A stretch of DNA of 64,000 nt from contig JAHLVW010000062.1 in assembly GCA_019058275.1 (NCBI GenBank), positions 1 through 64,000 on the forward strand, read 5' to 3'. Positions 9,043-12,662 of the stretch are shown here, one piece after another. The DNA comes from Candidatus Heimdallarchaeota archaeon (GTDB lineage Archaea > Asgardarchaeota > Heimdallarchaeia > JABLTI01). Below the pieces are notes generated by a model that did no database searches, was not told the DNA's origin, and was given only the letters and a program-made list of their open reading frames with translations. Both the position numbers and the translations under genes were made by a program. Position 1 is the stretch's first letter. Every line of letters begins with the position of its first letter.

Positions 9043-10746
9043 TCAATTCCAATCTTTCTTTTCTGCCTCTTTGGATTTCACTTTATTTTCCGGATAAGCA
9101 ACAAGTGAAACCGTTTCACCATATTTTGTTGATGTTTTTCTCTTTCTAAATTTAACCAAAATAGGTATTCGTAAAGCTGCACCAGATAGTACGCCTGTTC
9201 CTCTCTCAAGATAAGGTAGCAGACCAATGTACCTTTCTGCGAATCCAGCAAGGATATCCTTTGCAACATTTAAATCAGATTGCTCAGTAATCCTCAAAAT
9301 AAGTTTTGAGTTACATTGAGAAAGTATATCACGATCCAAACCACTAGGTCTTTGACTAACAATTCCTAATCCGGCCCCCATTTTTCTACCCTCTCGAGCA
9401 AACCATTCAATAGCACGTTTAGTTGGGGATTCACCAATTGGTATAAATCGATGTGCTTCCTCTATCAGAAGAAAAACTCTTTGAATTTCCTTCCTTTCCA
9501 TTGTTCTTCTTAAACGATTCAAATAACTAGAGACAAATATTCGTCTTGCTCTTTCATCTAAACCTGGTTGTGAAACATCTAGAATTGTTATTACTTCGGG
9601 ACCAAAATGCTTTCTTACACTAGCAAGATTTGAAAGGTCTCTAGCTTTTTCATTAGATTCTCTTCTGCGATAATTGCTGTCATATTCTTGTATTATTGAA
9701 CCAGTCATATGACAGATTGAACCATCTAATTCAGTGAAGAAACCCATTTTTCTAAAAACTTCAAGCTTTCTTGTGATTGGTCTCCTACTACTACCGTCTA
9801 TAATGTTATTCTCAATACCAAAACCAAGGAAACCGTCAATATCATAACAAACTGCAAATCCAAAAGAATCGCGTATTGCATACCAAGTGTTCTCAATTTT
9901 TTCCTTTTGTGTGGATGTTAAGTCATACATAAAACTAAACATTTCAGAAGTTGATATTTCTGAAAAGAGCATAGTAACAGGTTCAATCTTGAGATTAACA
10001 TCTAGTTTCTTGGACATTTTTTGCATCAGATTATGGTATCTAGGGAGATATCGATTGGGATAAAGAACATTAACAAAGTATTTTGGTAGGGAACCCTCAC
10101 CTTTTGGACCTGTTGTTTGAGATAAACCCCAGTATTCTCCATGTGGATCCACAATCAAAGTAGGTAGACCGAATTCTGTGAATTCTTCAATTATAACTCC
10201 TGTTGCATACGATTTTCCACTACCTCTTGAACCAAAAATTGCTAAACCATCAGAACCTAAAGTGTTAGGATTTAATCTTACAACAATTTCTCCAGAATGT
10301 TCAGAGAAGAGACCTACATCCATGACTCCTCTTTCTTTTCCAAATACTGCCAGCTTTAACAAATCGTCCCTGCATTCAAAAACCATAGATCCTGGTGAGA
10401 TCCAAGCATTTGGTGTTGATAAATCACCACTATGGGAGATGTTTGATACAAGTACAACTTCTATAACATGGAATTCAGTAAATTCCAACATTGAACGAGA
10501 TTCTAAAGAGCGTCTAAGACGATCCATCCAAAATTTTGCATACCGTTCATCACTTAGCTGAGGATTTTCAGCTCTAATATTGGTTACTCTACCGATAATC
10601 GTATTACCATTTGCCAAAGGAATGCTAACAAAACTACCTTCTACTATATCTTCGTGTTCTACATTTTCATCTAATCGAACAACTACTGTTCCTTGTTCCT
10701 TTGAAACCCCTAAAACAAATCCTATCTTCTTTGAACCTTTTGGCAA
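9043..10746 (-). CDS. herA: HerA-like (DUF87) hexameric ATPase/helicase with N-terminal HAS barrel
   Basis: Walker A GSRGSGKS, DPHGEY, Walker B LLIEEAHRF, REGRK.G, SQRPS. Confidence 0.85.
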   Translation of the reverse strand: MPKGSKKIGFVLGVSKEQGTVVVRLDENVEHEDIVEGSFVSIPLANGNTIIGRVTNIRAENPQLSDERYAKFWMDRLRRSLESRSMLEFTEFHVIEVVLVSNISHSGDLSTPNAWISPGSMVFECRDDLLKLAVFGKERGVMDVGLFSEHSGEIVVRLNPNTLGSDGLAIFGSRGSGKSYATGVIIEEFTEFGLPTLIVDPHGEYWGLSQTTGPKGEGSLPKYFVNVLYPNRYLPRYHNLMQKMSKKLDVNLKIEPVTMLFSEISTSEMFSFMYDLTSTQKEKIENTWYAIRDSFGFAVCYDIDGFLGFGIENNIIDGSSRRPITRKLEVFRKMGFFTELDGSICHMTGSIIQEYDSNYRRRESNEKARDLSNLASVRKHFGPEVITILDVSQPGLDERARRIFVSSYLNRLRRTMERKEIQRVFLLIEEAHRFIPIGESPTKRAIEWFAREGRKMGAGLGIVSQRPSGLDRDILSQCNSKLILRITEQSDLNVAKDILAGFAERYIGLLPYLERGTGVLSGAALRIPILVKFRKRKTSTKYGETVSLVAYPENKVKSKEAEKKDWN

Positions 10747-10858
10747 TTTTGTAACCTACCATCTTATGTGAAAGTACTGTTCCTTAATTTAATTTTGGGA
10801 GATAGTTAAATAAACCCGACTATTTTAAACAGAAAAAGTTTCATTTTAAAAGTAAAGA

Positions 10859-10888
10859 AAATTGAAAAAGGTATTTCATTTTCAATTT
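10859..10888 (-). terminator. 10-bp hairpin followed by a U-rich tract on the minus strand
   Basis: AAATTGAAAA (10859-68) / TTTTCAATTT (10879-88), immediately after the stop at 10891. Confidence 0.45.
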
Positions 10889-10890
10889 AA

Positions 10891-11178
10891 TTACCTAAAG
10901 AAATAATTGAAATACCATTTGATAATGTCAAATCGTACCTTTAATCTTTCTTTAAATGAGATGGAACTTATTGATTGAATGCATGCTTCTTCGCAAGAAT
11001 TAGCTCAAGCTTCACCACAAGTGTTACCCAATGCTTCACCAATTCCTTCTGCAAGTCCAAAAGCAACAAGAAGAAGTAGAACTACAATAACAATGATAAT
11101 TACTAAAGGTATGATCCCACAGAAAATTAATAATAGGATATTTTTTCTTCTTTTTGGATTATCTTTTTTAAAAGCCAT
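10891..11178 (-). CDS. Small single-pass Cx3C protein with in-frame UGA at codon 58 (candidate selenoprotein or nonsense pseudogene; not in ORF track)
   Basis: MAFKKDNPKRRKNILLLIFCGIIPLVIIIVIVVLLLLVAFGLAEGIGEALGNTCGEA*ANSCEEACIQSISSISFKERLKVRFDIIKWYFNYFFR; SD-like GTGAT upstream; same architecture as 11312-11887. Confidence 0.7.
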
Positions 11179-11311
11179 TTTATCACATAAAAATCAACGA
11201 AATAATAATGACAAGTTGTTAAAGCAAAAATAGCATAAAAGATTTTTCTTTTTCCTATGATTTCTTAGCTAAATTCTCAAAGAAAGAGAAAAAAAGTAGA
11301 ATAGTTGTTTT

Positions 11312-11887
11312 CTACTTTAATATACTAAAGACTGAATACATTATCCATTTAAGCAGATTTTTAGTATTTTGCAACGATTCTATTGGAGTTATCTTACCAG
11401 AACAACAACCACTACAAGCATTTTCGCAGCACCTATCACCGCAACCTTCACAACAATCTGCACACATTTGTTCACAAGCATTTTCACAGCAGTTTCCACA
11501 AGCATCATCACATCTTTGTGCACACTGTTGCTCACAGCCCTCACAACAACCCGCACAAATTTGGCTTGCACAATTGTCAATACAAGTTTCAAATACTCCA
11601 ACAATCAATAAACCGAAGAAGACAACTCCTAAGATAATGAGGACTATAGGTAATGCAATTCCAAAAATACTAATGTATAGCCATCTTTTTCTTTTATGTT
11701 TTCTTAGCTCTTCCTCTGTTAAGTCTTCTTCTGTAAATTCATCAGTTCCATCTTCAAATGGTTCTGCAGGTGTTTCTTCAATTGAGTCAAATTTCTCATC
11801 TGGAGGTGGTGGAACTGGTTCATCATAAGTAGGAACATCATTCTCTCTTTCATCTTCCTCAGAAGACCAATTTTCTTCCTCCGACAT
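11312..11887 (-). CDS. Membrane-anchored cysteine-rich protein (acidic N-tail, basic patch, TM, Cx3C/CC repeats)
   Basis: CEGCEQQCAQRCDDACGNCCENACEQMCADCCEGCGDRCCENACSGCC after a long TM helix. Confidence 0.8.
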   Translation of the reverse strand: MSEEENWSSEEDERENDVPTYDEPVPPPPDEKFDSIEETPAEPFEDGTDEFTEEDLTEEELRKHKRKRWLYISIFGIALPIVLIILGVVFFGLLIVGVFETCIDNCASQICAGCCEGCEQQCAQRCDDACGNCCENACEQMCADCCEGCGDRCCENACSGCCSGKITPIESLQNTKNLLKWIMYSVFSILK

Positions 11888-11999
11888 AAAATAACTCTCA
11901 CGTTTTTACAAATTTCGTAAAGTATAATTGTAGTTAATTGTAAACTCGAGGTAATAATAACTTTTTGTGGAAGAGATTTTTTGAGTATTAAAGAAAAAA

Positions 12000-12662
12000 T
12001 CATTGTTCTGGAATTGGTTCCACATTTTTTTGTTTAGTTTTTTCTAGTTCTTCCTCAATAATCTTGTATAATTTTCGTACTCGAATGTTGGTATTTTGAT
12101 CAGGATTGCAAGGAGGATCTGCTTCAGCTAAAGGACAATCACTACACTTTCTCCTATTTGCATTACGTCCTCGACTTAAACCATATAAATTGTTTCCTGC
12201 AAGTAGGAGAAATACTAAAACAACTCGTAACCACCATAGAGGAACTTCAATAACAATAGCACAATAAGCTCCGATACCAAAACCTGCTATGAATCTGAAA
12301 ATAGCTTTTAGCCATTTAATCTTTAATCGAAATAACTTGTGTAAAATTGCTAAACCAAAACCTGTGAAAGGCAAAATTGTAATTACATAATGATTGTACC
12401 AAAAAACGTTCGGAACAGCAAAGAATAGAATAGTGTAAAGTATTAATGCAGAATATATCATCGAACAACCAATGCAAAAGTTAAATGAACCAATTTTGAA
12501 AGTATGGTTATCATATCTGCTGCATAAAGGATGGTGACCAAGAATTCTCCAAGCTTTTACTTTAAAGATAGCCCATTGTGTATGAAAAGGAGTACGTTTT
12601 TTCAAAGTAACTTCTTCAGAGAGATAAGGACTAGTTATATTCTCTGAACTTGCATCAGTCAA
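12000..12662 (-). CDS. Membrane protein with His/Cys motifs (DUF2085-like)
   Basis: HHPLC...H, FCIGC, four TM helices, CxxC..C tail. Confidence 0.6.
   Translation of the reverse strand: MTDASSENITSPYLSEEVTLKKRTPFHTQWAIFKVKAWRILGHHPLCSRYDNHTFKIGSFNFCIGCSMIYSALILYTILFFAVPNVFWYNHYVITILPFTGFGLAILHKLFRLKIKWLKAIFRFIAGFGIGAYCAIVIEVPLWWLRVVLVFLLLAGNNLYGLSRGRNANRRKCSDCPLAEADPPCNPDQNTNIRVRKLYKIIEEELEKTKQKNVEPIPEQ

What the first reader, a model, noticed from the sequence alone, without database searches (positions are those of the whole stretch)
10891..11178. Hidden gene with an in-frame UGA exactly on a Cx3C cysteine position: candidate new selenoprotein
Seen: a minus-strand frame missed by the ORF track encodes basic patch, TM, then TCGEA*ANSCEEAC, then ...DIIKWYFNYFFR. 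The TGA (11007-11005) gives C-x3-*-x3-C-x3-C, exactly where the 4-residue Cys periodicity predicts Cys. The frame stays open for 37 more codons, and that tail resembles the C-terminus of the upstream paralogue (NLLKWIMYSVF). Known: some Asgard lineages (Loki-, Thorarchaeia) decode UGA as Sec using 3'-UTR SECIS elements. Inference: either a Sec-containing member of an undescribed family or a single TGY>TGA nonsense change. Caveats: I see no canonical AUGA/GA SECIS downstream (only AT-rich hairpins, each with AAAATGAAA...CTTTTTC), and the window holds several other broken genes.
Basis: partly seen in the sequence, partly recalled or inferred. Interest (0 to 1): 0.8.

Follow-up and report, generated by a model that had tools for sequence, protein, structure and literature searches.

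The report
Nonsense-mutated cysteine-rich membrane gene, not selenoprotein
The in-frame TGA is real, but it is a recent one-base stop mutation (TGT to TGA) in a small cysteine-rich membrane-protein gene of a Heimdallarchaeia archaeon that has none of the machinery for making selenoproteins, so this is an ordinary broken gene.

Summary
A 57-codon minus-strand ORF (11178-11005) ends in TGA. The frame stays open for 37 more codons, to a TAA at 10893-10891, and the TGA sits on a Cys column.

The selenoprotein reading fails. All seven orthologues found, in the same genus and a sister family, carry TGT at that column. No other member in 29 related loci has an internal stop.

This genome is 92.8% complete. 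It has no tRNA-Sec, no tRNA with a UCA anticodon, and no SelD, PSTK or SepSecS. SepSecS was not found in 61 genomes of the class or tRNA-Sec in 11 of the genus. The same SepSecS search gave full-length hits in about half of 201 Asgard genomes, all outside this class. Two papers report no Sec use in Heimdallarchaeia.

TGA ends 23% of long ORFs here. The 3' UTR holds no SECIS match and folds no better than shuffled sequence.

Independent contig assemblies of three sediment runs carry the TGA, so it is not an assembly slip.

The tail's dN/dS against the closest species is 0.17, so the mutation is young. One congener lacks this short paralogue entirely, so the gene is dispensable.

Verdict: an ordinary recent nonsense mutation, of low interest.

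The parts
11005..11178 (-). Truncated ORF (57 aa): basic patch, one transmembrane helix and the first Cys of the Cx3C array. It ends at the premature TGA.
   Evidence: transmembrane helix 8-47 modelled with pLDDT 73-87
11005..11007 (-). Premature stop codon TGA at codon 58. All seven orthologues have TGT (Cys) here, so this is a single third-position T>A change on the coding strand (+ strand base 11005).
   Evidence: present in contigs of runs X1, X2 and X5
10891..11004 (-). Former 3' part of the gene (37 codons plus TAA): three more Cx3C cysteines and the conserved C-terminal K-W-aromatic helix. It is now downstream of the stop, still in frame and undecayed.
   Evidence: dN/dS 0.17 against G004; neutrality over the whole divergence rejected at P=0.02
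10747..10890 (-). 3' untranslated/intergenic region up to the HerA-like gene. AT-rich, with weak hairpins only and no SECIS.
   Evidence: Rfam E-value scan gave no SECIS family; fold -17.5 kcal/mol against shuffles -19.3, z = +0.57
11312..11887 (-). Intact long paralogue (191 aa): acidic N-terminus, basic patch, transmembrane helix, about 60-aa Cx3C/CC array and a K-W tail.
   Evidence: 88% identical to the G004 orthologue, dN/dS 0.17
12000..12662 (-). His/Cys-rich polytopic membrane protein (sub-threshold DUF2085 match). It is the conserved neighbour of the Cx3C gene pair.
9043..10746 (-). HerA/DUF87-type ATPase immediately downstream. It is syntenic within the genus and very conserved.
   Evidence: 98% aa identity to G004, dN/dS 0.04

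Best explanation
The gene at 11178..10891 (minus strand) belongs to a small family restricted, so far as sampled, to Heimdallarchaeia. Its members are single-pass membrane proteins: a basic cytoplasmic patch, one transmembrane helix, a Cx3C cysteine array and a conserved C-terminal K-W-aromatic helix. In this species one third-position change turned the invariant TGT (Cys58) into TGA. The organism reads TGA as a stop and has no selenocysteine system. Translation therefore ends after 57 residues, giving a membrane stub that lacks three of the four cysteines and the conserved tail. The gene is most likely a young pseudogene, or at best a truncated product. Its intact long paralogue lies directly upstream. 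Shown: the TGA, the TGT in all orthologues, the missing Sec machinery, normal use of TGA as a stop, and loss of the gene in a congener. Inferred: that the truncated product is non-functional and that the loss is tolerated because the paralogue remains.
For: (1) Codon 58 is TGT in all seven orthologues (L020-L024, L026, L027) and TGA only here. The closest orthologue is 83% identical with no stop.
(2) A family HMM run over six-frame translations of 21 further Heimdallarchaeia loci found no member with an internal stop (for the other 8 loci).
(3) In this genome (92.8% complete) no tRNA-Sec passes the cut-off, and the best hits are tRNA-Ser, tRNA-Gln and tRNA-Gly. None of 38 intron-tolerant tRNA predictions has a UCA anticodon. 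SelD, SepSecS and PSTK are all below cut-off.
(4) No convincing SepSecS in 61 genomes of the class: three partial matches just over the Pfam cut-off (25-27 bits, about 80-100 of 389 positions) against 340-440 bits for full-length hits. tRNA-Sec was found in 0 of 11 genomes of the genus. The same SepSecS search gave full-length hits of 340-440 bits in most of the 102 matching genomes among 201 Asgard genomes, all in other families.
(5) PMC9723677 found no tRNASec in Heimdallarchaeia. PMC11227280 reports Sec use in Loki-, Thor- and Sifarchaeia and says other clades appear to lack it.
(6) TGA terminates 695 of 3057 long ORFs.
(7) Families that are selenoproteins in other Asgards (MvhD x3, NiFe hydrogenase large subunit, Prx) carry no TGA at a Cys position here. 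The one Prx fragment with a TGA has it at a Trp/Lys column, keeps its catalytic Cys and is also truncated, so it is another pseudogene.
(8) No SECIS match, and the 3' UTR is no more structured than shuffles.
(9) G003 (L055) has only about 140 nt between the long paralogue and HerA, with no short paralogue, so the gene is dispensable.
(10) Contigs of three runs carry the TGA. One of them is a variant haplotype with an extra SNP at 11022, so the TGA is not an assembly error.
Against: The tail after the TGA shows no decay: no further stop or frameshift, and a dN/dS of 0.17 that equals the rest of the gene. A still-translated tail would look the same, although a recent mutation predicts it equally. 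The TGA is the majority base in three samples and two haplotypes, so it is not a rare deleterious variant. The genome encodes a 537-aa SelB-like GTPase. The MAG is incomplete and has 6.8% contamination. PMC11227280 notes a few Heimdallarchaeia with Sec-type homologues of known selenoproteins but no machinery. Only contigs, not raw reads, could be examined, and there are no RNA or protein data.
Confidence: 0.92

Rival explanations
1. Low-level translational read-through of the TGA by a near-cognate tRNA such as tRNA-Cys or tRNA-Trp. This would still yield some full-length protein, so the gene would be down-tuned rather than dead.
For: The tail is intact and shows purifying-selection-like divergence. 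The allele is fixed or in the majority in three samples. Near-cognate decoding of UGA as Cys or Trp is known in other organisms (general knowledge).
Against: No read-through signal or structure lies downstream. TGA is an ordinary terminator in this genome. The intact tail is equally explained by a young mutation. A congener has lost the gene outright.
Confidence: 0.05
2. A true selenoprotein: UGA58 decoded as Sec.
For: The TGA lies exactly on an invariant Cys column with conserved downstream coding. A SelB-like GTPase is encoded. Sec is used by other Asgard classes (PMC4989117).
Against: No tRNA-Sec, UCA tRNA, SelD, PSTK or SepSecS in this genome, and none found in its genus or class. No SECIS. 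No other family member has TGA. The SelB-like protein scores 134 bits against a cut-off of 242 and ends at EF-Tu domain 3. That fits the aSelBL family found in archaea that do not use Sec (PMC3037878). Other potential selenoprotein families use Cys here.
Confidence: 0.01
3. A sequencing or assembly artefact: the real base gives TGT.
For: It is a single-base difference in a metagenome-assembled genome. Only contigs, which drop minority variants, could be checked.
Against: Independent Logan assemblies of three runs, at depths 115, 14.6 and 13.8, agree with the window. One of them differs at 11022 but keeps the TGA.
Confidence: 0.02

Closest known systems
Ordinary nonsense-mutated gene (young unitary pseudogene) in a prokaryotic genome
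   Same: A single-base change creates a premature stop at a conserved codon. The downstream frame is still intact. Orthologues are intact. A related species has lost the gene. Another TGA-interrupted, truncated gene (a Prx fragment on C101) exists in the same genome.
   Different: Nothing unusual. The only twist is that the hit codon is a Cys codon in a Cx3C array, which mimics the Sec/Cys signature used to find selenoproteins.
Asgard/archaeal selenoprotein genes (HdrA, MvhD/VhuD, Prx-like and SelD of Loki- and Thorarchaeia; PMC4989117, PMC11227280)
   Same: An in-frame TGA aligned with Cys in homologues, with conserved coding downstream.
   Different: No tRNA-Sec, SepSecS, PSTK, SelD or SECIS. 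There is no Sec/Cys alternation across orthologues. The organism belongs to a class with no Sec trait in the genomes sampled. The family is not a redox enzyme with a catalytic Cys.
TIGR04117, Cys-Xaa-Xaa-Xaa repeat radical SAM target protein (Syntrophobacter type)
   Same: The long paralogue gives a sub-threshold match (E 8.6e-5; 22.6 bits against a cut-off of 50). This reflects the shared Cx3 repeat periodicity.
   Different: The match is below the cut-off. No radical SAM/SPASM gene was seen among the neighbours I scanned. The proteins here are membrane-anchored and have a conserved K-W tail. The resemblance is probably only compositional.

Membership tests
Selenoprotein gene (archaeal/Asgard type) | In-frame UGA aligned with Cys in homologues | tested here: met
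   TGA at codon 58 against TGT in 7 of 7 orthologues
Selenoprotein gene (archaeal/Asgard type) | tRNA-Sec (UCA anticodon) in the genome | tested here: not met
   RF01852 best hit 35.6 bits, below 47, and it is tRNA-Ser. No UCA anticodon among 38 tRNAs. 0 of 11 genus genomes. Sensitivity caveat: the model found tRNA-Sec in only 2 of 4 SepSecS-bearing Asgard genomes.
Selenoprotein gene (archaeal/Asgard type) | Sec synthesis enzymes SelD/SPS, PSTK and SepSecS | tested here: not met
   All below the curated cut-offs in G000. No convincing SepSecS in 61 genomes of the class, only three short partial matches of 25-27 bits. Full-length hits appear in about half of 201 Asgard genomes, all in other families.
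Selenoprotein gene (archaeal/Asgard type) | Sec-specific elongation factor SelB/EFSec | tested here: inconclusive
   A 537-aa GTPase hits TIGR00475 at 134 bits (cut-off 242). It has EF-Tu domains 1-3 only, with no C-terminal extension. This fits aSelBL of archaea that do not use Sec (PMC3037878), but I did not build a tree.
Selenoprotein gene (archaeal/Asgard type) | SECIS element in the 3' UTR | tested here: not met
   No SECIS family in the Rfam E-value scan. The 3' UTR fold has z = +0.57 against shuffles. Caveat: I could not confirm that Rfam holds an Asgard/archaeal SECIS model, and no dedicated one was run.
Selenoprotein gene (archaeal/Asgard type) | Sec/Cys alternation in several independent orthologues | tested here: not met
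   No internal stop in any other family member across 29 loci. The metagenome scans found no further copies.
Pseudogene by nonsense mutation | Premature stop at a codon that is sense in all orthologues, removing conserved parts | tested here: met
   The truncation removes C58, C62, C66 and the invariant K87/W88.
Pseudogene by nonsense mutation | The stop is real in the DNA, not an artefact | tested here: met
   Contigs of three runs, including a variant haplotype. Raw reads were not available.
Pseudogene by nonsense mutation | Relaxed constraint or decay downstream of the stop | tested here: not met
   Tail dN/dS is 0.17 and the head is 0.23. This implies a young lesion. With only 37 codons, power is low.
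Pseudogene by nonsense mutation | No full-length product made | not testable with these tools
   Needs proteomics or ribosome profiling.

The most novel reading that the evidence does not exclude
UGA58 is partly read through, for example as Cys or Trp by a near-cognate tRNA, possibly helped by the SelB-like GTPase. A Heimdallarchaeia lineage without Sec machinery would then keep a functional full-length Cx3C membrane protein behind a leaky stop. That would be Sec-independent UGA recoding in the archaeal class closest to eukaryotes.
Probability: 0.04. Interest if true: 0.7.

Novelty: already known. Interest (0 to 1): 0.08.

Why it matters
As a selenoprotein candidate it does not matter: it is a false positive. 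It is a useful cautionary case. In Cys-rich repeat proteins, a TGT/TGC>TGA nonsense change automatically mimics the Sec/Cys signature. The presence of Sec machinery in the genome and lineage should therefore be checked before such calls are made. The host gene family is uncharacterised and deserves its own look: a Cx3C single-pass membrane protein pair next to a His/Cys membrane protein, conserved across Heimdallarchaeia. That is a separate finding.

Tried and rejected
- The search for homologous proteins with the read-through product gave no hit.
- The ESM Atlas feature search gave no usable hit.
- Both metagenome-contig scans found nothing, one with the protein and one with a degenerate DNA pattern around the codon. 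No further strains could be compared.
I used the neighbouring membrane protein instead.
- The AlphaFold model of the read-through product was poor (mean pLDDT 59; the Cys region below 50), so I ran no fold search.
- The bacterial promoter/terminator scan is uninformative for an archaeon.
- Run X7 (cold seep) holds only a 409-nt contig of a relative, and it stops at 10961, short of the TGA. It says nothing about the codon.
- A genome-wide TGA reassignment to Trp or another residue is rejected. TGA ends 23% of long ORFs, and long in-frame continuations after TGA (6.9%) are about as frequent as after TAG (5.8%) and TAA (4.2%).
- My first two attempts at a HerA dN/dS were spoiled by a one-codon indel. 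One search corrects this.
- I did not check the list of other in-frame-stop ORF pairs in the window by homology.

Full report
**Observation.** The minus strand of the window holds a 57-codon ORF at 11178..11005. It encodes MAFKKDNPKRRKN, then a long hydrophobic stretch, then ...GNTCGEA, and ends in TGA at 11007-11005. The same frame runs on for 37 codons (ANSCEEACIQSISSISFKERLKVRFDIIKWYFNYFFR) to a TAA at 10893-10891. I stored the read-through product as P0001.

**Is the register meaningful?** Yes. A search of 60 relatives found intact orthologues in seven genomes of the same genus and in one of a sister family.
- The closest orthologue (G004, L020) is 83% identical over all 95 residues and has no stop.
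- In the alignment of the read-through product with seven complete orthologues, the TGA column is invariant Cys. C54, C66, K87 and W88 are also invariant.
- At the DNA level all seven orthologues use TGT at this column. The G000/G004 nucleotide alignment shows TGA against TGT as a single third-position difference.
- The upstream 191-aa gene (11887..11312) is a true paralogue (profile matches).

**Whose genome is it?** Relatives of the neighbouring membrane protein carry record titles of Candidatus Heimdallarchaeota MAGs. These include Ca. Heimdallarchaeum aukensis and endolithica, and JABLTI01, the 'Gerdarchaeota' type genome, which sits in the window's own genus. The organism is therefore a Heimdallarchaeia, not a Loki- or Thorarchaeia.

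**Sec machinery in this genome.** In this 92.8%-complete genome I found no component that reaches its curated cut-off.
- The tRNA-Sec model gives nothing above its gathering score. Its best hits are tRNA-Ser(UGA/GCU), tRNA-Gln and tRNA-Gly.
- An intron-tolerant ARAGORN run finds 38 tRNAs, none with a UCA anticodon.
- SelD, SepSecS and PSTK models give only sub-threshold hits to unrelated paralogues.
- The SelB model's best hit is a 537-aa GTPase at 134 bits (cut-off 242). It has EF-Tu domains 1-3 and no C-terminal extension. That matches the description of the aSelBL family found in archaea that do not use Sec (PMC3037878). I did not make a tree.

**Sec machinery in relatives.**
- No convincing SepSecS appears in 61 genomes of the class. 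Three genomes give short partial matches of 25-27 bits covering about 80-100 of 389 model positions, just over the Pfam cut-off.
- As a positive control, the same search over 201 Asgard genomes matched 102 of them. Most matches are full length at 340-440 bits, and all lie in other families. The count is 0 in families f1-f6 of this class.
- tRNA-Sec was found in 0 of 11 genus genomes. That model is less sensitive: it found tRNA-Sec in only 2 of 4 SepSecS-bearing Asgard genomes.

**Literature.** Sun et al. 2021 found no tRNASec in Heimdallarchaeia (PMC9723677). The 2024 Asgard selenoproteome survey reports Sec use in Loki-, Thor- and Sifarchaeia and says other clades appear to lack it. It does mention a few Heimdallarchaeia with Sec-type homologues of known selenoproteins but no machinery (PMC11227280).

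**Following up that caveat in this genome.**
- The three MvhD/FlpD homologues and the NiFe-hydrogenase large subunits have no internal stop.
- Among seven AhpC/Prx hits, one (C101:2086-2328) holds a TGA.
- That TGA aligns with a Trp/Lys column (GKW-V). The catalytic Cys (PVCTTE) is encoded normally, and the gene is truncated after about 100 residues.
- It is therefore another decayed gene, not a selenoprotein.

**Genetic code and SECIS.** TGA terminates 695 of 3057 ORFs of 150 codons or more, against 684 for TAG and 1678 for TAA. Long in-frame continuations after TGA are barely more common than after the other stops. So TGA is an ordinary stop here. The 147-nt 3' region gives no SECIS match in a permissive Rfam scan. 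It folds to -17.5 kcal/mol against a shuffle mean of -19.3 (z = +0.57).

**Is the base real?** Five sediment runs hold the stretch. I laid Logan contigs of three of them (X1 at depth 115, X2 at 14.6, X5 at 13.8). All agree with the window at 11005-11007. X5 differs at 11022 (codon 53, Thr>Ala, the G004 state) but keeps the TGA. These runs may be the source of the MAG, so they are not independent samples of nature. They are, however, independent assemblies, and one carries a distinct haplotype. Contigs hide minority alleles, and raw reads were not available.

**Age and consequence of the lesion.**
- Against G004, dN/dS is 0.23 for codons 1-57 and 0.17 for codons 59-95.
- It is 0.17 for the long paralogue and 0.04 for the HerA-like neighbour.
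- Neutral evolution of the tail over the whole divergence is rejected (P = 0.02).
- The stop is therefore young relative to the species split. A read-through tail would look the same, so this test cannot separate the two readings.
- Truncation removes three of the four cysteines and the invariant K-W helix.
- The gene is dispensable in nature. In congener G003 (L055) the long paralogue is followed after about 140 nt by the HerA-like gene, with no short paralogue at all.

**What the gene family is.**
- A profile search of 1.84 billion cluster representatives found only 35 hits at E <= 0.001, of which 19 are at E <= 1e-10. Several of the weakest look like low-complexity noise.
- Pfam and NCBIfam give nothing for the short protein.
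- The long paralogue has a sub-threshold match to TIGR04117, the Cys-Xaa-Xaa-Xaa repeat radical SAM target.
- Within the genus the gene order is fixed: His/Cys membrane protein (weak DUF2085 match), long Cx3C protein, short Cx3C protein, HerA-like ATPase, GNAT.
- In a sister family the Cx3C pair lies divergently next to the same membrane protein.
- The structural model is all-helical but of low confidence outside the transmembrane helix.
- Single Cys columns are not sacrosanct in the family. One orthologue has Ile at column 62, and one database member has Trp at column 54.

**Verdict.** This is a recent TGT>TGA nonsense mutation in a dispensable paralogue, in a lineage without selenocysteine. 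I put Sec at about 1%, an artefact at about 2%, and functional read-through at about 4-5%. Interest as a selenoprotein candidate is low.

Noticed in passing
window 10891-12662 (minus strand); L021-L027, L050-L069: A conserved module: a His/Cys-rich polytopic membrane protein (HHPxCSxY, CIGC and CxxCP...PPC motifs; sub-threshold DUF2085 match) next to a long and a short Cx3C single-pass membrane protein. The genes are co-oriented in the window's genus and divergent in a sister Heimdallarchaeia family. The Cx3C family has only about 35 cluster representatives in 1.84 billion proteins.
   Followed up: partly
L055:5274-5417 (G003, same genus): The short Cx3C paralogue is missing altogether. Only about 140 nt separate the long paralogue from the HerA-like gene.
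   Followed up: yes
G000:C61:129469-130335 (L039:1360-2973, minus strand): A 537-aa SelB-like/EF1A-like GTPase in a genome without Sec machinery. Its best NCBIfam hit is selB at 134 bits, below the cut-off. It has an N-terminal extension of about 120 aa and ends at EF-Tu domain 3. It is probably an aSelBL-type factor of unknown role.
   Followed up: partly
G000:C101:2086-2328 (minus strand): A peroxiredoxin (AhpC-TSA) fragment with an in-frame TGA at a Trp/Lys column, an intact catalytic Cys and a truncated C-terminus. It is a second TGA-interrupted pseudogene in this genome.
   Followed up: yes
window 11312-11887 (minus strand): The long paralogue gives a sub-threshold match to TIGR04117, the 'Cys-Xaa-Xaa-Xaa repeat radical SAM target protein' (E 8.6e-5). 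I saw no radical SAM gene among the neighbours scanned.
   Followed up: no
window 9043-10746 (minus strand): The HerA/DUF87-type ATPase directly downstream is far more conserved than its neighbours: 98% aa identity to G004 and dN/dS 0.04. It keeps its position after the Cx3C genes throughout the genus.
   Followed up: partly
G126:C3:129645-131583; G181:C2:188523-190018: In two SepSecS-bearing Asgard genomes from other classes, the tRNA-Sec gene lies within about 1 kb of SepSecS.
   Followed up: no
P0007 (database protein, relative of L021): A family member has Trp where the others have the Cys54-column cysteine (…TACSSAWDDAC…). Single cysteines of the array can therefore be replaced.
   Followed up: no
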